Origin: a virus
UHGV virus genome: UHGV-0240820
Length of the DNA: 24,873 nucleotides
Direction: 5' to 3' (one strand)
Below are positions 158-21,927 of the stretch, piece after piece (positions within the stretch are counted from its first letter, which is position 1; each line of letters opens with the position of its first letter). A program made the translations under genes and the position numbers. The notes below the pieces were generated by a model. That model searched no databases and was not told where the DNA came from. It saw nothing but the letters and a program-made list of their open reading frames with translations.

Positions 158-431
158 CCTGCAACTTGCCGTTAAAGGTGAATACTTCGATGCCATGATT
201 CGCGGAGAGAAAACGGAAGAGTATCGCCTGTGTAATGACTACTGGAATAAGCGAATTATGTTCCGCGAGTATGACCGCCTGATTATCACAAAGGGATATC
301 CGAAGCGCGACGATTCCAGCCGCAGAATTGACGTCCCGTATGACGGATATGAAATCAAGACAATCACACATCCGCACTTCGGCGATAAGCCGGCAAAGGT
401 GTTCGCGATAAAGGTGAATATTGATGGCTAA
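150..431 (+). CDS. ASCH-domain-like small protein (93 aa)
   Basis: GTG start at 150 preceded by AGGAGG (138-143). Contains a G-x-K-x-x-E-x-R motif (RGEKTEEYR) characteristic of ASCH/PUA-like domains. Domain call is from memory of the motif. Confidence 0.5.
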   Translation: MANLQLAVKGEYFDAMIRGEKTEEYRLCNDYWNKRIMFREYDRLIITKGYPKRDDSSRRIDVPYDGYEIKTITHPHFGDKPAKVFAIKVNIDG

Positions 432-726
432 ATCAGCAGCAGAGCGCAAAGCCGCTCAGAGAGCCAGACAAGCTGCATCTGGTGTGCGTAAGCTGGAAAT
501 TGTGCTTGATGCTCAGGAAATTGAAATGCTGGAGCGTAACTGTGCCACGCGTCGCCCCGGGCGTGCGCCTTACGAATTTGGTGAGTATATAGCGTTACTG
601 ATCCGCCAGGATGATGCACGCGTGCACGGGCGTATAAAATCGATCAGCAGAAACGTTGCGGTAAGTGCGGCGAGAGAGTTCCCGTTAATTCATGCCCGTG
701 TAATGGTGACTCGGAATGCTGGGTGA
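424..726 (+). CDS. hypothetical small protein; 3' part probably frameshifted (see findings)
   Basis: ATG at 424 with AAGGTGA (411-417) at 6 nt spacing. N-terminal 70 aa look protein-like; the C-terminal 30 aa in this frame do not, while the -1 frame encodes a Cys-rich ribbon-like tail ending at TGA 759-761. Confidence 0.4.
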   Translation: MAKSAAERKAAQRARQAASGVRKLEIVLDAQEIEMLERNCATRRPGRAPYEFGEYIALLIRQDDARVHGRIKSISRNVAVSAAREFPLIHARVMVTRNAG

Positions 727-756
727 CTAAAGGCTGGCATGAAACGAAATTAATAG

Positions 757-770
757 CGTGACATGTCACG
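757..770. repeat. 14-bp perfect palindrome CGTGACATGTCACG
   Basis: Read directly from sequence; the 12-bp core GTGACATGTCAC recurs at 3023-3034. Confidence 0.6.
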
Positions 771-810
771 AGTAGATTATGCATGATGAATTTGATGGGT
801 TTTGAATACT

Positions 811-837
811 GCCGCCAACTATGGCGGCTTTATTTTG
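811..837 (+). terminator. intrinsic terminator-like hairpin upstream of the terminase genes
   Basis: GCCGCCA (811-817), loop ACTA, TGGCGGC (822-828), followed by TTTATTTTG. Confidence 0.55.
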
Positions 838-842
838 CATGG

Positions 843-862
843 TACTATTACCACAACGGTAA
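843..862 (+). promoter_or_regulatory. -10-like TACTAT abutting dyad TTACCACAACGGTAA (848-862); candidate late promoter/operator
   Basis: Same hexamer-plus-dyad arrangement as at 21184-21203 on the minus strand. Lies 18 bp upstream of the terminase small subunit start. No good -35 element. Confidence 0.4.
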
Positions 863-879
863 CTATTACCACGGTGGTT

Positions 880-1476
880 ATGATGCCTGCTGAACCTAAA
901 ACCTATAAACGCAAATCAACGCAATTTAAGCCACTAACAGCAATGCAGGAGGCTTATTGCCAGTCATACATCAAAACGCCTGAAAACCAGACTCAGGCAG
1001 CGATTAACGCAGGATTCTCCCCAAATACAGCGGCAGTTAAAGCCAGTCTCATGATGCGCGATGAACGCATTCAAAAACGGATTGCCGAGCTGATGGAAGA
1101 GCGCAACAAACGAATGCGCGTCAGTGCTGATTACGTTCTCATGCGCCTGGTGGAGATCGACCAGATGGACGTGATCGACATCCTCAACGACGATGGGAGC
1201 CTTAAGCCAATCCGCGAGTGGCCGAAAATCTGGCGCACTACGCTTAGTGGCTTTGATCTGTCATCGACCATCATGAACATGAACGAGGATTCGATAGAGA
1301 CAATCCTCAAAAAAATTAAATGGCCTGACAAGGTGAAGAACCTCGAACTGATTGGTAAGCACGTCGACGTCAACGCATTCAAAGAACGCCTGGATGTTAA
1401 TGTGAATGTGACAATTGCTGATCGCATAGCGGCAGCCAGGAAGAGACTGAAAGAACGTCAGGATGGCAATCAGTGA
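880..1476 (+). CDS. terminase small subunit
   Basis: Position immediately upstream of, and overlapping (GTGA), the large subunit. Sequence resembles small-terminase families (from memory). Start placed at ATG 880 (or 883, GGTGG at 873-877); the ORF-track start at 802 is rejected because it spans the terminator and the direct repeat. Confidence 0.7.
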   Translation: MMPAEPKTYKRKSTQFKPLTAMQEAYCQSYIKTPENQTQAAINAGFSPNTAAVKASLMMRDERIQKRIAELMEERNKRMRVSADYVLMRLVEIDQMDVIDILNDDGSLKPIREWPKIWRTTLSGFDLSSTIMNMNEDSIETILKKIKWPDKVKNLELIGKHVDVNAFKERLDVNVNVTIADRIAAARKRLKERQDGNQ

Positions 1477-2948
1477 CAGATACAGCGTTATCTCCTGAAG
1501 AGCAGTTAATCGAGGATATTGCAGGGTTCACTCACGATCCGCTTGGCTATGCCCTCTATGCGTTCCCATGGGGGGAAGAGGGGACTGAACTGGCACATGC
1601 CACCGGCCCACGTCAGTGGCAGGCTGATGCGTTCCGAGAGATACGTGATCACCTGCAGAATCCAGAGACGCGCTATCAGCCGCTTATGCTGGCACGCGCT
1701 TCTGGTCACGGTATTGGTAAATCCGCATTCATCTCAATGCTGATCAACTGGGGCATGTCCACTTGCGAGGATTGTAAGGTCGTGGTGACCGCCAACACCG
1801 ACAACCAGCTACGAACGAAGACCTGGCCGGAAATTATCAAGTGGTCGAACCTTGCTATCACGAAAGACTGGTTTACCTGTACCGCTACCGCGATGTACAG
1901 CAATGACCTAGGGCACGACAAGCGGTGGCGGGCTGACGCAATACCCTGGTCTGAGCACAACACCGAGGCATTCGCCGGACTACACAACGAGCGCAAACGC
2001 ATCATCGTGGTGTTTGATGAAGCGTCGAACATTGCGGATCTGGTGTGGGAAGTTGCCGAGGGTGCGCTTACGGACGAAGACACTGAGATTATTTGGGTGG
2101 CGTTCGGAAACCCTACACGTAACACCGGGCGTTTTCGCGAATGTTTCCGCAAATATAAACACCGCTGGAAAACTGCGCAGATTGACAGCCGGACGGTGGA
2201 AGGCACCAACAAACAGCAGTTGCAGAAATGGGTTGATGACTACGGGGAAGATAGCGACTTCGTTAAAATCCGTGTGCGTGGCATATTCCCTGATGCATCT
2301 GAATTGCAGTTTATCCCTACCGGTCTTACTGACGAGGCAATGAAACGGGTGGTAACCGCTGCGCAGGTTGCACATGCTCCGGTGATAATCGGTGTTGACC
2401 CGGCATATTCAGGCGTTGATGACGCGGTGATATACCTGCGGCAGGGGCTACACAGTAAGGTGCTGTGGACTGGCAACAAGACTACCGACGATCTGATTAT
2501 GGCGAAGCGTATCGCTGACTTTGAAGACCAGTATCAGGCTGACGCGGTGTTCATCGACTTCGGTTACGGAACCGGTTTGAAGTCAATCGGTGACGGCTGG
2601 GGTCGTACATGGCAACTTGTTCCGTTCGGTGGCGCGTCTACTGACCCGCAGATGCTCAACAAGCGTGGGGAGATGTTCAACTCATGCAAGACATGGCTGA
2701 GGCTCGGCGGCATGCTGGATGACCAGGAAACAGCGGACGACCTGTCGACGGCAGAGTACAAAGTTCGCGTGGACGGTAAAATCGTTATCGAACCGAAGGA
2801 AGATATCAAGGAGCGGCTTGGGCGTTCTCCTGGTAAAGGCGATGCGCTACTGCTGACGTTTGCGTTCCCTGTGTCGAAGCGTCTGCGAATTCCCGGGCAG
2901 CAGAACCAGCAAGGCAAGGCCATCACAGATTACGATCCATATGCTTAA
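1473..2948 (+). CDS. terminase large subunit (ATPase + nuclease)
   Basis: 491 aa. Walker A-like GHGIGKS, Walker B-like VVFDEAS, and an RNaseH-like nuclease region (IGVDPAYSG...DDAV). GTG start overlaps the upstream stop. Confidence 0.9.
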   Translation: MTDTALSPEEQLIEDIAGFTHDPLGYALYAFPWGEEGTELAHATGPRQWQADAFREIRDHLQNPETRYQPLMLARASGHGIGKSAFISMLINWGMSTCEDCKVVVTANTDNQLRTKTWPEIIKWSNLAITKDWFTCTATAMYSNDLGHDKRWRADAIPWSEHNTEAFAGLHNERKRIIVVFDEASNIADLVWEVAEGALTDEDTEIIWVAFGNPTRNTGRFRECFRKYKHRWKTAQIDSRTVEGTNKQQLQKWVDDYGEDSDFVKIRVRGIFPDASELQFIPTGLTDEAMKRVVTAAQVAHAPVIIGVDPAYSGVDDAVIYLRQGLHSKVLWTGNKTTDDLIMAKRIADFEDQYQADAVFIDFGYGTGLKSIGDGWGRTWQLVPFGGASTDPQMLNKRGEMFNSCKTWLRLGGMLDDQETADDLSTAEYKVRVDGKIVIEPKEDIKERLGRSPGKGDALLLTFAFPVSKRLRIPGQQNQQGKAITDYDPYA

Positions 2949-2998
2949 TCCGCTGGTGGGGATAATGTCGTTGATATCCTCTGATGAGGATAAAACAA

Positions 2999-3025
2999 AG
3001 CCAGCTCATCGGCTGGCTGTTTGTG
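2999..3025 (+). terminator. weak terminator-like hairpin after the terminase large subunit
   Basis: AGCCAGC (2999-3005), loop TCATCG, GCTGGCT (3012-3018), then GTTTGTG. The T tract is poor. Confidence 0.35.
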
Positions 3026-3034
3026 ACATGTCAC
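3023..3034. repeat. palindrome GTGACATGTCAC (second copy)
   Basis: Exact 12-bp match to the core of the 757-770 palindrome. Confidence 0.6.
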
Positions 3035-3038
3035 GGCG

Positions 3039-3461
3039 TTAGAAGGTTATTTTATCGAATGCGGCGTTGATTGCCTTGGCGTCCTGCTCAGCACCAACCA
3101 CATCAAGTAAAGATCTTTTACTAAGCACTTCAGCCAGGCATTGTAACTTCATGTTGTATAAGTTTTCGCGCATGTAATCATCATCACTTTTTTCTTTGGC
3201 GTATACAGCGCGAGAAATATCAAACACATTGCCTTTTTCCATTTCAGTTTTCTGCGCTGAAATCCAGTCATGGCAAGTAACTCCTATTCCATGGTCATCG
3301 CTAAGCGTTAACCCGGCAAGTCGCTCACCTGGAATTGCTTCACAAAGCATTTCATTTCCTGCAAAAACACCATAAAAAATTGAATCATCACCCTGAACAA
3401 TGCGTACATATTTGCACGGCCATTCATTTAGATATTTAGCTAGCATGTCGGCTGTTTTCAT
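3039..3461 (-). CDS. hypothetical protein (140 aa), reverse-oriented moron
   Basis: Clean ORF with AAGGTGA 4 nt upstream of the ATG on the minus strand. Convergent with the terminase genes. No recognisable motif. Confidence 0.55.
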   Translation of the reverse strand: MKTADMLAKYLNEWPCKYVRIVQGDDSIFYGVFAGNEMLCEAIPGERLAGLTLSDDHGIGVTCHDWISAQKTEMEKGNVFDISRAVYAKEKSDDDYMRENLYNMKLQCLAEVLSKRSLLDVVGAEQDAKAINAAFDKITF

Positions 3462-4384: not shown

Positions 4385-6064
4385 ATGGCGGAAACAACTA
4401 AAGAGCGATTGAACAAACAGTTCGCACAACTTGAAAGCGAGCGTCAGTCGTTCGAGCCGCACTGGCGCGAGTTGAGTGATTACATCAACCCGCGTGGTTC
4501 CCGCTTTCTGACTTCTGAGGTTAACCGTAACGATCGACGCAATACACGCATTATTGATTCGACCGGGACTATGGCGGCGCGCACTCTCGCCAGCGGCATG
4601 ATGTCAGGCATCACAAGCCCCGCGCGTCCGTGGTTTCGCCTGGCTACGCCAGATCCTGAAATGATGGATTATGGCCCTGTTAAGTTGTGGCTTGAGGCGG
4701 TGCAGAACCGCATGAACGATATGTTCAATAAGTCGAATCTCTATCAGTCGCTGCCGCAGTTATACGGAAGCCTCGGCACATACAGCACTGGTGCAATGGC
4801 AGTGCTGGAGGATGACGAGGACATCATTCGCACAATGCCATTCCCGATAGGCAGTTACTACCTGGCTAACTCACCTCGTGGCAGTGTGGACACCTGTTTT
4901 CGCAAGTTCTCTATGACTGTTCGTCAGCTTGTTCAGGAGTTCGGGCTAAATAACGTCAGCGAATCCGTAAAAAGCATGTGGGAAAGCGGAACCTACGAGA
5001 AGTGGATTGAAGTGATGCATTCGGTTTACCCGAACATTGACCGCGATACATCGAAGCTGGATAGCAAGAACAAGCCATTCAAATCGGTTTATTACGAGGT
5101 TGGTGGCGATAACGACAAGTTGTTGCGTGAGTCCGGATTCGATGAGTTTCCAATTATGGCTCCGCGCTGGGAAGTTAACGGCGAAGATGTTTATGGATCA
5201 TCATGCCCGGGTATGCTGGCGCTTGGACCTGTTAAGGCATTGCAGCTTCTCCAGAAGCGCAAGTCGCAGTTGATTGATAAAGCCACCAATCCGCCGATGG
5301 TTGCTCCGACTTCCCTCAAGAATCAGCGCGCCTCCCTTCTTCCTGGCGACATCACGTATATCGATCAGATTACTGGTCAGGATGGTTTCAGGCCTGCTTA
5401 TCTGGTTAACCCCAGTACAGCAGATTTGGTGGCAGACATTCAGGACACTCGTCAAATCATTAACAGCGCCTACTTTGTCGATCTGTTCATGATGTTGCAG
5501 AACATCAATACCCGCTCGATGCCTGTTGAAGCGGTGATCGAAATGAAAGAAGAAAAACTTCTGATGTTGGGGCCGGTTCTGGAGCGTCTGAACGACGAAT
5601 GTCTTAATCCTCTCATTGACCGCTCTTTCTCGATGATGGTGCGTAAAAACATGCTGCCGCCACCGCCTGACGCGATGGAAGGCATGCCCCTGAAGGTCGA
5701 ATACATTTCCGTCATGGCTCAGGCGCAGAAGTCTATCGGCCTGTCCAGTCTGGCGTCCACGGTTAACTTCATTGGTCAACTTGCGCAAGCGAAACCAGAA
5801 GCTCTCGACAAACTCAACGTTGATCAGGCGATCGATGCATTCGCTGATATGTCCGGAGTGTCTCCAACCGTCATTGTTCCGCAGGAACAGGTTGAGCAGG
5901 CTCGCCAGCAACGGGCACAGCAACAACAGCAGCAACAAATGATGGCGATGGGGATGGCGGCGGCACAGGGTGCCAAGACGCTAAGCGAAGCTAAAACTTC
6001 GGATCCGAGTGTTTTGTCAGCTATGGCGAATGCAGTTAGTGGTCAGGGTGGGCAATCACAATGA
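4385..6064 (+). CDS. portal protein (podovirus type)
   Basis: 559 aa, located after the terminase genes. Gln/Met/Ala-rich C-terminal tail (QQRAQQQQQQQMMAMGMAAAQGA) resembles the T7 gp8 C-terminus as I recall it. Confidence 0.85.
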   Translation: MAETTKERLNKQFAQLESERQSFEPHWRELSDYINPRGSRFLTSEVNRNDRRNTRIIDSTGTMAARTLASGMMSGITSPARPWFRLATPDPEMMDYGPVKLWLEAVQNRMNDMFNKSNLYQSLPQLYGSLGTYSTGAMAVLEDDEDIIRTMPFPIGSYYLANSPRGSVDTCFRKFSMTVRQLVQEFGLNNVSESVKSMWESGTYEKWIEVMHSVYPNIDRDTSKLDSKNKPFKSVYYEVGGDNDKLLRESGFDEFPIMAPRWEVNGEDVYGSSCPGMLALGPVKALQLLQKRKSQLIDKATNPPMVAPTSLKNQRASLLPGDITYIDQITGQDGFRPAYLVNPSTADLVADIQDTRQIINSAYFVDLFMMLQNINTRSMPVEAVIEMKEEKLLMLGPVLERLNDECLNPLIDRSFSMMVRKNMLPPPPDAMEGMPLKVEYISVMAQAQKSIGLSSLASTVNFIGQLAQAKPEALDKLNVDQAIDAFADMSGVSPTVIVPQEQVEQARQQRAQQQQQQQMMAMGMAAAQGAKTLSEAKTSDPSVLSAMANAVSGQGGQSQ

Positions 6065-6357
6065 CAGATTACGAAGACGATCAACTGAAAGAAGAAAACG
6101 CCCGTAAGCAACGTGACATGGCACAGCGTGAAATTGATGACATTTGCTTTGTCATGAGCAGTGAACAGGGGCGTCGCGTTGTCTGGTCGGTGCTGGAGAA
6201 AGGCCGTGTGTTTTCCGCTATCTCACCGATGGACGCTATGGCAATGGCATTTAATGAGGGGCAACGCAATCTGGCGCTGGAACTGTTTCAGCGCGTTATG
6301 GCGCATTGCCCTGAACAGTATTTGAAGATGGCCAAAGAGGCCAGTGAACAGGAGTGA
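6061..6357 (+). CDS. hypothetical protein (98 aa) between portal and scaffold
   Basis: ATGA overlap with the portal stop; acidic, helical-looking. Confidence 0.55.
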   Translation: MTDYEDDQLKEENARKQRDMAQREIDDICFVMSSEQGRRVVWSVLEKGRVFSAISPMDAMAMAFNEGQRNLALELFQRVMAHCPEQYLKMAKEASEQE

Positions 6358-19191: not shown

Positions 19192-20043
19192 ATGAAAAAA
19201 ATAAATTTGTTTTTTGGCATAGTGCTTTCAATAGTCTCTGTAAATCCTACAGCTGCCAGTTCATTGCAATGCAATAAGGATAACTTTGATGCATGCAAAA
19301 CGTGTGAACAATTATCAAAGGCTATCGACTTAAAAGAACCTAATCGTGGCGATTACTATAGAGGGGCTTTATGGAATGGGCTTTACGCCTCTTATGTAAT
19401 TAATTGCCCTGTGGTTGCTGAGAAGTTACTGAGCCATGGTGCTATACCATCATATGGCGGATATATGGGGTCTATGGGGGCGGTTCTGACAGGAAAATGG
19501 CCTCATAACAATGAATCAATAAATCTTTCATGGGCAGATTTGCTTATAAAACATGGATTTGATGTTAATAGGCATACGGGGAATTATAAATCAGCTACTG
19601 AAGTATGGGCTATAGATAAAAAACAGATTGAATATAAGTCAGTTTTTGACAAGTTAATTCAATCCAGCGAAGTAAAACCACTCGATCCTTCAAGAAATTT
19701 AGAATGGTGTGCGTCTGAAGGGTATCGCTCAGTTGTCGTTTATTCCCTTAACTCATGTATAGAAAATGCTATAAAACGTTTGGATGATGGTGTTTCTTCA
19801 GCGTCTGATATTTCATCAGCAGCCGTAAATTCCTGTACTAGCGATGTAGAAAATTTCAATAAGCATTTGGCATGCAAAGCAGCTGTTAAAGAAAACTCTG
19901 ATAAAGAGAGAAGCGACGTTTACCAGTTATTAACCAGTGATAGTCAAATGAATAAAAATGTTATTGATATGCTGAAGGAAAGAAATATTGAAACGGTTCT
20001 TGAATTTAGAGCTGAAAATCGATCAGCGAAAACTGCACAGTGA
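19192..20043 (+). CDS. secreted protein of unknown function (283 aa, AT-rich moron)
   Basis: N-terminal signal peptide (MKKINLFFGIVLSIVSVNPTAAS), about 10 Cys, AT-rich codon usage unlike the structural genes. Start is 1 nt after the gp16-like stop. Confidence 0.6.
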   Translation: MKKINLFFGIVLSIVSVNPTAASSLQCNKDNFDACKTCEQLSKAIDLKEPNRGDYYRGALWNGLYASYVINCPVVAEKLLSHGAIPSYGGYMGSMGAVLTGKWPHNNESINLSWADLLIKHGFDVNRHTGNYKSATEVWAIDKKQIEYKSVFDKLIQSSEVKPLDPSRNLEWCASEGYRSVVVYSLNSCIENAIKRLDDGVSSASDISSAAVNSCTSDVENFNKHLACKAAVKENSDKERSDVYQLLTSDSQMNKNVIDMLKERNIETVLEFRAENRSAKTAQ

Positions 20044-20049
20044 TCAAAC

Positions 20050-20074
20050 AGGCCGCTTTCGCGGCCTTGTTTTT
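20050..20074 (+). terminator. intrinsic terminator
   Basis: AGGCCGC, loop TTTC, GCGGCCT, followed by TGTTTTT. Confidence 0.75.
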
Positions 20075-20234
20075 AACGAATGCCACCGCCGCCCGGGCGG
20101 GAATCCGCAGAACGCCCACCGCAGCGGGAGCCGTCAGCAGCAGTGTCGCTGTCGTGCTGACAACGACCGGCAAAGGCCTGAGTTGAAGCTACCAGAGACA
20201 ACAAAACGAACAGTGCAGCAAATGCTTTTTTCAT
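20073..20234 (-). CDS. small exported peptide candidate (53 aa)
   Basis: Internal Met of ORF 20073-20306 starts a classic signal peptide (MKKAFAALFVLLSLVASTQAFAG) followed by a 30-aa Gly/Arg/Asp-rich tail with 2 Cys. GC-rich, in contrast to its flanks. Confidence 0.35.
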   Translation of the reverse strand: MKKAFAALFVLLSLVASTQAFAGRCQHDSDTAADGSRCGGRSADSRPGGGGIR

Positions 20235-20315: not shown

Positions 20316-20828
20316 CTATGCAGGCTTTTTGGATTTGTACGAATAATCCCACGGATAAACATTTCTACTAAGTGGAGCTGTATTCGTTCGTTCATGAAAT
20401 AATTTTGTGAAATTCAATACGGAATCCATCCAAACTTTTGCGTTAGCTTTGGTGTGTGCGGGCGGGTCCCAATAAGCTAGTAAGGCTGCATCTCTTATTT
20501 CATTGACTGCATATATGAGATATGCGTTACTGGTTGGTTTTGGCCTGTAATTTCCTTGTTCATCAATCAATCCATATGACCACTCATCCCAACACTGTTC
20601 AGTACATGAGTATGAATATGATGCATATTCACCAATATTGACATGAACCTTTCTGAGATGGAAGCCTAATACTTCGTCTGGTCTTTCAAAAAGAGTATCT
20701 TTTCCCAGATCAGGATGATGACCATGACGCCAGTGTTGTTTAAAAGCATCTTTTAGCGAAATCAGAAAGTCATCAGTTTTAAACTCACCAGTAGGTATAA
20801 CCTTCCCGCTATACTCACTCAAAAACAT
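20316..20828 (-). CDS. hypothetical protein (170 aa); candidate toxin/effector of a two-gene module
   Basis: Strong RBS (AGAGGA at 5 nt spacing). His cluster (HWRHGHH) and a Cys/Trp-rich segment (YSCTEQCWDEW). Start overlaps the upstream gene's 3' end by 14 nt. AT-rich. Confidence 0.55.
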   Translation of the reverse strand: MFLSEYSGKVIPTGEFKTDDFLISLKDAFKQHWRHGHHPDLGKDTLFERPDEVLGFHLRKVHVNIGEYASYSYSCTEQCWDEWSYGLIDEQGNYRPKPTSNAYLIYAVNEIRDAALLAYWDPPAHTKANAKVWMDSVLNFTKLFHERTNTAPLSRNVYPWDYSYKSKKPA

Positions 20829-21270: not shown

Positions 21271-21927
21271 TCAGAAGAACCCTGCTTTGTCGTTGATGTA
21301 CTCCGCGTGCGTCTGGATATCACGCAGGCATTTGCTCACACCGACGATGTAGCAGAACATGGTGGTCAGTTCCGCCGCCGCGCCCGATACGTCGTGCCCG
21401 TCTTCCTGTAACTGGTTCAGCAGATTCATCAGCAGTGAGTTCTCCGTCAGGCCGAGAACACCAGACGGAGAATGAATCAGGCTGCGGTAGCCGGGCTTCA
21501 GCGGGGCACTGTATTCTTTTTTGTCTTCCAGCTTGATCGCCTCCATAATGGCGGGCATGAAGCCTGACAAGACCTTCTCCACTTTTGTTTCTTGTTGTCT
21601 TAAACGTTTCTCGCATTCAATGAAGTAGCGTCGCACCTGGCGACCTTTTTCGTTACGCTCGACCATCGCCAGCTCTTTGGCTGTATCAAGGGTGAGGTGG
21701 TACTCTTTGCGGTTGTGGCCGCCTCTACCAGATGTTTGCTTTCCCAAATTGGAAAGCAAAATATAGTCTTGATTTTCAATGAATTCGTATTCTGATATGC
21801 GATTTGTAATCCATGCTGCAAACACCTTTTTAACACCTAAAAAAGCGTGCAGATCGCGGGCATTACAAAGTAGGGCTGTTTCGTTAGATATAGTGCCGTT
21901 GAATACGGGGATGAGTTGAGCGTTCAT
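21271..21927 (-). CDS. phage antirepressor (AntA/Bro-N-type N-terminal domain plus C-terminal domain)
   Basis: N-terminal sequence ([12 protein letters not shown]...[32 protein letters not shown]) matches the conserved AntA-type antirepressor domain as I recall it. GGAG RBS. C-terminal 80 aa are paralogous to ORF 23077-23334. Confidence 0.75.

What the first reader, a model, noticed from the sequence alone, without database searches (positions are those of the whole stretch)
757..3035. Palindrome GTGACATGTCAC bracketing the terminase gene pair
A 14-bp perfect palindrome sits at 757-770 and its 12-bp core recurs at 3023-3034, just before and just after the terminase genes. It could be a regulatory protein site or a packaging-related signal.
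Basis: seen in the sequence. Interest (0 to 1): 0.45.

Follow-up and report, generated by a model that had tools for sequence, protein, structure and literature searches.

The report
Conserved phage operator-like palindrome, matS half-sites
The two palindromes are real copies of a 12-bp element (GTGAC-NN-GTCAC) that travels with a small uncharacterised phage gene across many unrelated phages, so it is most likely that protein's DNA-binding site and not a packaging signal; its half-sites match the bacterial chromosome-organising site matS.

Summary
CGTGACATGTCACG lies at 757-770 and GTGACATGTCAC at 3023-3034, and none of 100 shuffles gave two copies.

The window is an epsilon15/phiV10-like podophage. 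The element is conserved and not local. In 75 of 80 relatives chosen by protein homology, the exact 12-mer overlaps the TGA stop of a 112-aa gene (PHROG 536, no known family), and most carry the second copy after terL. Distant homologues of that gene have GTGAC-NN-GTCAC at or within 10 nt of their stop codons: ZF40, Pantoea AH07, a P2-like Yersinia phage, N15/phiKO2 and Chlobot. The central dinucleotide is uniform within a genome and differs between lineages (AT, CT, GC, TG). epsilon15, ZF40 and N15 have three exact copies each. Spacing is strictly 2 bp: 134 copies against none with 1, 3 or 4 bp in 1.4 Mb.

In the epsilon15 group and in a GC-type phage-plasmid group, extra copies sit 0-10 nt upstream of intrinsic terminators, and mosaic joints fall at their edges.

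The protein model (pLDDT 80) resembles ribbon-helix-helix proteins, including MatP, but only weakly. matS is GTGACRNYGTCAC.

Best reading: an operator for this protein, placed at transcription-unit boundaries. A packaging role is not supported. In this window the regulator gene is frameshifted.

The parts
757..770 (.). Palindrome copy 1, CGTGACATGTCACG (12-bp core 758-769). It contains the TGA (759-761) that is the stop codon of the intact regulator gene in relatives.
   Evidence: In 75 of 80 homology-selected relatives the exact core starts 1 nt before the stop codon. It is conserved in epsilon15 despite diverged flanks.
3023..3034 (.). Palindrome copy 2, GTGACATGTCAC. It lies between the convergent 3' ends of terL and the minus-strand ORF 3039-3461, 4 nt from that ORF's stop and 4 nt from the terminator hairpin.
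   Evidence: Present at the homologous place in epsilon15 (2142-2153), in phiV10 and in about 55 of 80 relatives, 2216-2450 nt after copy 1.
424..761 (+). Gene of the putative binding protein (PHROG 536; 112 aa when intact). In this window it carries a -1 frameshift at the A-run 651-653 (A3 instead of A4), so frame 1 ends at 726 and the Cys-rich C-terminal part is out of frame.
811..836 (+). Intrinsic terminator-like hairpin GCCGCCA-ACTA-TGGCGGC plus TTTATTTT, 41 nt downstream of copy 1.
   Evidence: epsilon15 has an annotated terminator at the same place, 23 nt after its copy.
2999..3026 (-). Hairpin AGCCAGC-CGATGA-GCTGGCT (2999-3018) adjoining copy 2. The good T-run (TTGTTTTATC) is on the minus strand, so the order on that strand is ORF stop, palindrome, hairpin, T-run. 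A weaker T-run (TGTTTGTG) on the plus strand makes it possibly bidirectional.
883..2948 (+). terS (883-1476; an alternative ATG at 880) and terL (1473-2948), the gene pair bracketed by the two copies.
   Evidence: Pfam Terminase_2, E 1e-29. PHROG 2 terminase large subunit. Annotations of relatives.
3039..3461 (-). Accessory ORF (PHROG 4846, unknown function) ending next to copy 2. This slot holds different genes in relatives, and the mosaic joint lies 4-5 nt from the palindrome.
20040..20075 (+). Site of a lost third copy. The terminator AGGCCGC-TTTC-GCGGCCT plus TGTTTTTA (20050-20075) is identical to the one that directly follows a third palindrome in phiV10 and many relatives. Here it is preceded by GTGATCAAAC (a possible remnant), and the TGA at 20041-20043 is the stop of a different upstream gene (19192-20043).

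Best explanation
The two palindromes are copies of a conserved cis-element, an inverted repeat of GTGAC half-sites separated by exactly 2 bp. It is the cognate DNA-binding site of the small protein encoded immediately upstream of copy 1 (PHROG 536: an N-terminal basic helix, a probable ribbon-helix-helix core and a four-cysteine C-terminal module). A dimer would sit on each palindrome. In the epsilon15/phiV10 group the sites are placed at the 3' boundaries of transcription units, just upstream of intrinsic terminators. Copy 1 lies at the end of the early-right operon, over the regulator's own stop codon and ahead of the terminator and the repressor-controlled terS promoter. Copy 2 lies at the end of the minus-strand accessory gene that converges on terL. 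A third copy in relatives lies at the end of the late operon. The bound protein is therefore inferred to control what happens to RNA polymerase at these boundaries, either as a roadblock or insulator or by modulating the adjacent terminator. For copy 1 it may also autoregulate, because a polymerase stalled before the site would produce a regulator mRNA without its stop codon. What is shown: the conservation, the link between gene and site, the strict spacing, the multiple copies per genome, the adjacency to terminators and the coincidence with mosaic joints. What is inferred: that this protein binds the site, and what binding does. In this particular window the regulator gene is frameshifted, so the sites may be orphaned unless the frameshift is a sequencing error.
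For: 1. Excess over chance: 2 copies against 0.02 expected in the window; 3 exact copies in each of epsilon15, ZF40 and N15.
2. Link between gene and site in sets not selected by the motif: 75 of 80 close relatives have the exact 12-mer starting 1 nt before the stop. All 6 distant phage records have it within 10 nt of the stop: ZF40 65% identity, AH07 56%, YenM 41%, N15 and phiKO2 34%, Chlobot. Vibrio K303 (29%) has one 226 nt away, about 0.001 expected. Over all loci held, 197 of 216 regulator genes have it near the stop, and 183 at offset -1.
3. The central dinucleotide is the same in all copies within a genome but differs between lineages: AT, CT, GC, TG.
4. Spacing control: 134 N2 copies against 0 for N1, N3 and N4 in 1.41 Mb.
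5. Flanks diverge immediately outside the palindrome, and different modules abut it: a terminator plus terS, a 190-bp small ORF, or LexA-box promoters.
6. Terminator adjacency in two independent lineages: AT type and GC type, after a Rha-family gene.
7. The extra N15-type sites are conserved in diverged N15-like contigs.
Against: - There is no direct evidence of binding.
- The 'transcriptional regulator' label comes from PHROG and GenBank annotation of unknown basis.
- Sites at 3' ends of genes are unusual for an operator. No consistent promoter lies next to the copies (and manual inspection).
- In ZF40 and N15 the extra copies lie inside coding regions or near a promoter region, not at terminators, so the terminator link is not universal.
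- N15 and ZF40 have their own Q-like antiterminators.
- The window keeps one terminator without its palindrome, so the palindrome is not needed for that terminator to be retained.
- The Aeromonas homologue lacks the motif.
- Many loci used were selected by the motif, so that count is biased.
Confidence: 0.55

Rival explanations
1. The palindromes are bound by the host protein MatP (or they interfere with it). They would be matS-like sites through which the phage or prophage DNA engages the host Ter-macrodomain, MukBEF and divisome machinery.
For: The half-sites are identical to matS, GTGACRNYGTCAC (PMC6907758; PMC3603311). From memory, the hosts of phages carrying the element (enterobacteria, Vibrio) are the groups that have MatP. 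Copies are dispersed and few per genome, like matS.
Against: matS is 13 bp with a 3-bp centre. Here the centre is strictly 2 bp: 134 against 0 in 1.41 Mb, with no N3 copy in any genome examined. One base pair less rotates and shifts the half-sites for a rigid dimer. The centre is specific to each lineage and co-inherited with a phage gene, which a single host protein does not explain. Prophages avoid true matS.
Confidence: 0.1
2. The element acts in RNA. It would be a short hairpin (GUGA-CAUG-UCAC) at mRNA 3' ends, just 5' of terminator hairpins, serving as a processing, stability or local antitermination signal, possibly bound by the protein's arginine-rich N-terminus.
For: It is always in transcribed 3' regions, overlaps stop codons, and lies 0-41 nt 5' of terminators. 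The protein's N-terminus is basic and helical.
Against: The hairpin is weak and not unusual: -4.9 kcal/mol, z -1.6. No alternative pairing with the terminators was predicted. The stem bases are invariant across lineages with no compensatory changes, and only the centre varies. That is the pattern of a double-stranded DNA half-site, not of an RNA stem. Copies also occur within coding regions in ZF40 and N15.
Confidence: 0.08
3. The element is a recombination 'linker': a short conserved sequence at module boundaries that is kept, or keeps arising, because mosaic joints form there, with no dedicated binding protein.
For: Mosaic joints fall at the edges of all three sites: the 190-bp insertion right of copy 1, swapped genes right of copy 2, and unrelated genes left of copy 3 that share its TGA.
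Against: Twelve base pairs is very short for homology-driven exchange. A linker does not explain the strict dyad symmetry, the fixed spacing, the lineage-specific centre, or the conserved copies inside N15 repA and ZF40 genes. Joints next to conserved functional sites are expected anyway.
Confidence: 0.07
4. The palindromes are packaging (pac) or terminase-recognition signals flanking the terminase operon.
For: They bracket terS and terL here and in most close relatives.
Against: The element follows the regulator gene, not the terminase. It is present in cos phages with unrelated terminases (N15, P2-like YenM), lies 9 kb from the terminase in ZF40, and has a third copy 17 kb away in epsilon15 and phiV10. 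The phiV10 record start within the palindrome is an annotation choice.
Confidence: 0.03
5. GTGACA serves as a -35 hexamer, so the palindrome is part of a promoter (for example a late promoter with a nearby terminator, lambda PR'-like).
For: GTGACA-18-CATGAT at 758-787 scores 9 of 12. epsilon15 has GTGACA-17-TAAATT by manual reading.
Against: The number of promoter-like matches is not above the shuffles. No -10 element lies at a constant distance at copies 2 and 3 or in other lineages. The downstream sequence is not conserved.
Confidence: 0.04

Closest known systems
MatP / matS (E. coli Ter macrodomain organiser; matS = GTGACRNYGTCAC)
   Different: The centre is 2 bp, not 3, and never 3. There is no detectable sequence similarity to MatP (hhalign E 0.31) and no Pfam MatP hit. 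The protein is 112 aa, lacks MatP's N-terminal four-helix bundle and C-terminal coiled coil, and has a Cys4 module instead. It is phage-encoded, and the sites sit at gene ends and terminators.
Ribbon-helix-helix regulators with palindromic operators (Arc, Mnt, CopG, ParD, MazE and TacA antitoxins, NikR)
   Different: Those operators overlap promoters upstream of the regulated or own gene. Here the site overlaps the regulator's own stop codon and the other copies are at 3' ends next to terminators. There is an extra Cys4 domain. Family membership is not supported by sequence.
LacI and the O3 operator at the 3' end of lacI (roadblock giving non-stop lacI mRNA and tmRNA tagging; from memory, Abo et al. 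2000)
   Same: The operator lies at the very 3' end of the regulator's own gene, so a bound protein could stop RNA polymerase before the stop codon is transcribed.
   Different: This is purely an analogy and nothing was tested. The protein family is different, and here the stop codon lies inside the operator itself.
Lambda Q / qut / tR' (regulator gene followed by its site and a terminator ahead of the late genes)
   Same: The gene order is regulator, cognate site, terminator, packaging genes.
   Different: There is no similarity to Q proteins and no conserved promoter or pause element. N15 and ZF40 carry the element together with their own Q-like genes. Extra copies follow genes and do not lie at promoters.

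Membership tests
MatP/matS system | 13-bp site GTGACRNYGTCAC (3-bp centre) | tested here: not met
   All copies have a 2-bp centre. In 1.41 Mb of relatives there are 134 N2 and 0 N3 copies. There is no N3 copy in the window, epsilon15, N15, ZF40 or YenM. The half-sites themselves are identical.
MatP/matS system | Protein homologous to MatP (Pfam MatP / MatP_C; four-helix bundle + RHH + coiled coil, about 150 aa) | tested here: not met
   No Pfam hit. hhalign of A2 against MatP (sequence verified as 4d8j_B) gives E 0.31. The protein is 112 aa with a different N-terminus and C-terminus.
MatP/matS system | RHH core that contacts the palindrome as a dimer | tested here: inconclusive
Ribbon-helix-helix (CopG/Arc/MetJ) transcription factors | Beta-alpha-alpha fold forming an intertwined dimer | tested here: inconclusive
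Ribbon-helix-helix (CopG/Arc/MetJ) transcription factors | Binding to a short repeated or palindromic operator | not testable with these tools
   Only the genetic linkage of gene and palindrome was shown.
Phage pac site / terminase recognition signal | Association with the terminase genes and with the terminase type | tested here: not met
   The element is found with lambda-like cos terminase (N15) and P2-type terminase (YenM), 9 kb from the terminase in ZF40, and in extra copies far from the terminase.
Phage pac site / terminase recognition signal | Coincidence with the ends of packaged DNA | not testable with these tools
   No virion end data were available. The phiV10 record start is an annotation choice.
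Q-type antitermination module | Q-family protein plus a promoter-proximal binding and pause site | tested here: not met
   No Q-family hit. There is no conserved promoter next to the copies. The element coexists with Q-like genes in N15 and ZF40.

The most novel reading that the evidence does not exclude
The phage encodes a miniature MatP-like system. A small RHH protein would recognise matS-type half-sites at 12-bp instead of 13-bp spacing and bridge or insulate two or three dispersed sites on the phage or plasmid-prophage genome. It would thereby organise phage DNA into loops, for example looping out the terminase operon, or interface with the host MatP, MukBEF and divisome machinery, while staying invisible to host MatP, whose true site prophages avoid.
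Probability: 0.12. Interest if true: 0.85.

Novelty: new variant of a known kind. Interest (0 to 1): 0.6.

Why it matters
If the inference holds, this defines the cognate site of a widespread but uncharacterised phage protein family. The large protein database holds 661 clusters for it, all labelled 'hypothetical'. It occurs in 152 phage records spanning podoviruses, P2-like and ZF40-like myoviruses, N15-like plasmid prophages and Vibrio phages.

The placement of the site is unusual: over the regulator's own stop codon and directly ahead of intrinsic terminators. That points to control at the ends of transcription units and not at promoters, which is directly testable with reporter and Term-seq experiments.

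The identity of the half-sites with matS, in phages of MatP-containing hosts whose prophages otherwise avoid matS (PMC3603311), raises a concrete question. Do phages use, mimic or evade the host's chromosome-organising system?

The element is also a practical marker of mosaic boundaries in epsilon15-like prophages of E. coli O157 and Salmonella.

Tried and rejected
- **Physical DNA end.** The phiV10 record starts inside the palindrome, but the record simply begins after the last gene's stop codon.
- **Alternative terminase cassettes between the two palindromes.** The 2264 and 2450 nt spacings differ only by a 190-bp small ORF inserted right after copy 1. The terminases are 97.6% identical.
- **RNA structure or terminator/antiterminator switching.** The hairpin is weak and no alternative pairing was predicted.
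- **Promoter with GTGACA as the -35.** It is not above chance and not conserved.
- **Known host factors by recall.** CRP and FNR have the wrong spacing, and LacI/GalR-type operators have the same length but a different centre. These were rejected by inspection only.
- **Protein family assignment.** Pfam, NCBIfam, PDB sequence and profile searches all failed. hhalign against CopG (sequence recalled from memory) and against MatP was not significant.
- **First AF2 model.** With 23 sequences it reached pLDDT 63 and was unusable; its Foldseek hits were meaningless.
- **Literature.** No paper in the library contains the 12-mer. The epsilon15 genome paper and the SPC32H paper are not held, so I cannot exclude that the palindrome is mentioned there. 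The detailed epsilon15 GenBank annotation does not list it.
- **Host-genome count of the 12-mer.** Not possible, because no host sequence was available.
Full report
**Observation.**
The window has CGTGACATGTCACG at 757-770 and GTGACATGTCAC at 3023-3034. These are the only two exact copies in 24,873 bp. The expectation is 0.02, and none of 100 dinucleotide-preserving shuffles gave two. A single 1-mismatch copy at 6113-6124 lies inside an ORF. The copies bracket terS (883-1476) and terL (1473-2948).

**What the window is.**
The region is 95-98% identical to phiV10-like Escherichia podophages (Uetakevirus) and about 80% identical to Salmonella phage epsilon15. The gene upstream of copy 1 (ATG at 424) is the homologue of phiV10 p55, TL-2011b gp20 and epsilon15 gp49. 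This is a 112-aa protein in PHROG 536, labelled 'transcriptional regulator'.

In relatives its TGA stop is the TGA inside the palindrome (G-TGA-CATGTCAC). In the window the gene has an A3 run at 651-653 where 74 of 80 relatives have A4. The frame therefore shifts and the Cys-rich C-terminus is lost. This is either a real inactivating mutation or a sequencing error.

The phiV10 GenBank record starts in the middle of the palindrome, but only because the record was opened right after p55's stop codon. It is not a physical DNA end.

**Conservation in the epsilon15 group.**
epsilon15 keeps the exact 12-mer at both homologous places although the flanks have diverged: 39612-39623 over the gp49 stop, and 2142-2153 after terL. 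It has a third copy, TTGTGACATGTCACAA, over the gp18 stop and directly abutting an annotated terminator. phiV10 also has the third copy, at 19493 against the terminator at 19505-19522.

I fetched 80 viral contigs by homology to the regulator, not by the motif. In 75 of them the exact 12-mer starts 1 nt before the stop codon. The other five carry a 1-mismatch version. About 55 have the second copy 2216-2450 nt downstream, after terL.

**Anatomy around the copies.**
- *Copy 1.* It is followed 41 nt later by a hairpin with a T-run (811-836). Then come repeats at 841-872, which correspond to the 'repressor' binding site annotated upstream of terS in epsilon15.
- *Copy 2.* It adjoins the hairpin at 2999-3018, whose good T-run is on the minus strand. 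On that strand the order is ORF 3039-3461 stop, palindrome, hairpin, T-run.
- *General pattern.* In about 45 of 119 distinct contexts of the 12-mer in viral contigs, a GC-rich hairpin with a T-run follows within 0-5 nt or 21-41 nt.
- *Shared stop codon.* Several unrelated genes use the palindrome's TGA as their stop and are followed by a terminator: the regulator, epsilon15 gp18, a 98-aa membrane protein and a 138-aa protein.

**Mosaic joints coincide with the palindrome edges.**
A 190-bp small ORF is inserted immediately to the right of copy 1 in about a third of relatives, while the terminases stay 97.6% identical. The minus-strand gene to the right of copy 2 differs between the window, phiV10 and other relatives, and the joint lies 4-5 nt from the palindrome.

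In the window itself the third site is lost. The terminator at 20050-20075 is retained, but a different upstream gene (19192-20043) now abuts it, leaving GTGATCAAAC where the palindrome would be.

**The element travels with the regulator gene far beyond this phage group.**
tblastn finds the protein in 152 phage records. The sequence at the 3' end of the distant homologues is:

| Phage | Identity to regulator | Sequence at the gene's 3' end |
|---|---|---|
| ZF40 | 65% | TAA-TTGTGACATGTCACAG |
| Pantoea AH07 | 56% | CGTGACCTGTCACG |
| Yersinia P2-like vB_YenM_56.17 | 41% | TTGTGACGCGTCACAA |
| N15 and phiKO2 | 34% | GCGTGACTGGTCACGG |
| Chlobot | 88% | GTGACATGTCAC, 6 nt after the stop |

Vibrio phage K303 (29%) has CGTGACACGTCAC 226 nt downstream, where about 0.001 is expected in that stretch. 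An Aeromonas homologue has none.

The general motif is therefore GTGAC-NN-GTCAC. Whole genomes give three exact copies in each of N15 (all TG/CA centre), ZF40 (all AT) and epsilon15 (all AT), and one in YenM. The centre is uniform within a genome and differs between lineages.

Scanning the viral collection with the TG and GC variants gave two further results. The two extra N15 sites, inside repA and upstream of the anti-immunity operon, are conserved at the same places in diverged N15-like contigs. A GC-type group of ParA-carrying contigs has a second GC palindrome 5-8 nt after a Rha-family gene and about 10 nt ahead of a terminator, while the regulator with its own GC palindrome lies elsewhere on the same contigs.

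Over all loci held, 197 of 216 regulator genes have the motif near the stop, 183 of them at offset -1. This count is biased, because many of those loci were selected by the motif.

A spacing control is clean. In 1.41 Mb of homology-selected loci there are 134 GTGAC-N2-GTCAC copies and none with N1, N3 or N4.

**The protein.**
There is no Pfam, NCBIfam or PDB sequence match, whether from single sequences or from a profile. All 661 clusters in the large protein database are 'hypothetical'.

The alignment shows a basic N-terminal segment, a conserved core and four invariant or near-invariant cysteines. A first AF2 model was poor, with pLDDT 63. With three subfamilies in the alignment the model reached pLDDT 80.2 and pTM 0.58. 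It has a helix at 5-18, an extended segment at 19-29, helices at 30-42 and 52-75, a Cys-rich stretch and a C-terminal helix.

**The MatP/matS resemblance.**

Bobay et al. found no matS in any of 500 Escherichia and Salmonella prophages and argued that it is counter-selected. The phage protein shows no sequence similarity to MatP: hhalign gives E 0.31 against a MatP sequence that I verified as 4d8j_B. It also lacks MatP's four-helix bundle and coiled coil.

So this is not a member of the MatP family, and the site is not matS. The parallel is still the closest known one: an RHH-type dimer on GTGAC inverted repeats, with few dispersed copies per replicon.

**Mechanism.**
Several features are best explained by a dimeric DNA-binding protein whose gene and site are inherited together:
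- strict dyad symmetry and fixed spacing;
- invariant half-sites with a lineage-specific centre;
- several copies per genome;
- tight linkage to one small gene across otherwise unrelated phages.

I put about 0.55 on the PHROG 536 protein being that factor. What binding achieves is inferred from position alone. In two lineages the sites lie at the ends of transcription units, just 5' of intrinsic terminators. Copy 1 overlaps the regulator's own stop codon. That suggests control of RNA polymerase at unit boundaries, by roadblock, by insulation or by modulating the terminator.

For copy 1 it also suggests autoregulation in the manner recalled for LacI and O3. A polymerase stalled before the site would make an mRNA that lacks its stop codon.

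In relatives where a LexA-box promoter follows the regulator gene, the palindrome ends 6-7 nt upstream of the -35. Classical promoter-proximal action is therefore possible in other contexts.

**Rivals.**
- *Host MatP binding.* Disfavoured by the spacing and by the lineage-specific centres.
- *An RNA element.* Disfavoured by the weak hairpin (-4.9 kcal/mol, z -1.6) and by invariant stems without compensatory changes.
- *A pure recombination linker.* It does not explain the symmetry, the spacing or the intragenic conserved copies.
- *A pac signal.* Disfavoured because the element follows the regulator and not the terminase.
- *A promoter.* It is not supported.

**Novelty and limits.**
I found no description of the element. 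No paper in the library holds the 12-mer, and the richly annotated epsilon15 record does not list it. However, the epsilon15, phiV10 and SPC32H primary papers were not readable here.

Protein binding, the protein's fold and any functional effect remain untested. The host-genome background frequency could not be computed. The 14-mer also occurs in unrelated coding contexts in other phages, so the sequence by itself is not diagnostic.

Noticed in passing
window 645-655 (A-run 651-653), gene 424-761: The PHROG 536 regulator gene is frameshifted (A3 instead of A4). 74 of 80 close relatives have A4. The ORF therefore ends at 726, and the Cys-rich C-terminal third is out of frame. This is either a real inactivation or a sequencing error.
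   Followed up: yes
window 841-872: Direct repeats GGTACTATTACCAC and GGTAACTATTACCAC contain the inverted repeat TTACCacaacGGTAA (848-862), just upstream of terS. The homologous place in epsilon15 is annotated as a prophage-repressor binding site (record positions 12-27). terS therefore appears to have its own repressor-controlled promoter.
   Followed up: partly
window 20040-20075: The terminator AGGCCGC-TTTC-GCGGCCT plus T-run is identical to the one that follows the third palindrome in phiV10 and many relatives. Here the palindrome is replaced by GTGATCAAAC, and a different 283-aa gene (19192-20043) ends on the retained TGA. The mosaic joint is exactly at the element.
   Followed up: partly
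window 6113-6124: A 1-mismatch copy, GTGACATGGCAC, lies inside ORF 6061-6357. It is also present in phiV10 at the homologous coding position (record 5306). It is probably a coding coincidence.
   Followed up: partly
L006 6271, L007 1238, L122 5796; L127 about 2960-2985: In several relatives the regulator gene and its palindrome are followed by a LexA-box promoter (TTGACT/TTGACG, 17 nt, TACTGT, overlapping CTGT-N8-ACAG). The palindrome ends 6-7 nt upstream of the -35 in L006 and L007. The Yersinia phage has a LexA box about 170 nt downstream. This suggests a link to SOS-controlled (antirepressor?) genes.
   Followed up: no
L133 10348-10540 (relative of window 771/785): About a third of close relatives carry a 190-bp insertion immediately after palindrome 1. 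It encodes a small ORF beginning MPKIRYDLEDMRDNSANFPKEV, of unknown function.
   Followed up: partly
L289 10560-10710: An unrelated 80-kb viral contig has six GTGAC-NN-GTCAC palindromes (centres CT, CA, AT, CA, CA, CA) within about 150 bp. Other contigs (L275, L309, L263, L071, L109, L342, L414, L445) have runs of GTCACG/GTGACG units. These may be operator or centromere-like arrays for related or other proteins.
   Followed up: no
L129 (N15) 28550-28561 and 33237-33248: The two extra copies of N15's variant lie upstream of the anti-immunity (immA) operon and inside repA. Both are conserved in diverged N15-like contigs. N15 gene 46 has no described function that I could find.
   Followed up: partly
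window 21271-21927 (-) and 20316-20828 (-): The minus-strand ORFs downstream of the late operon include an AntA/AntB-family antirepressor (Pfam E 4e-26) and a weak YafO-toxin-like match (E 9.5e-4, below Pfam's cut-off).
   Followed up: no
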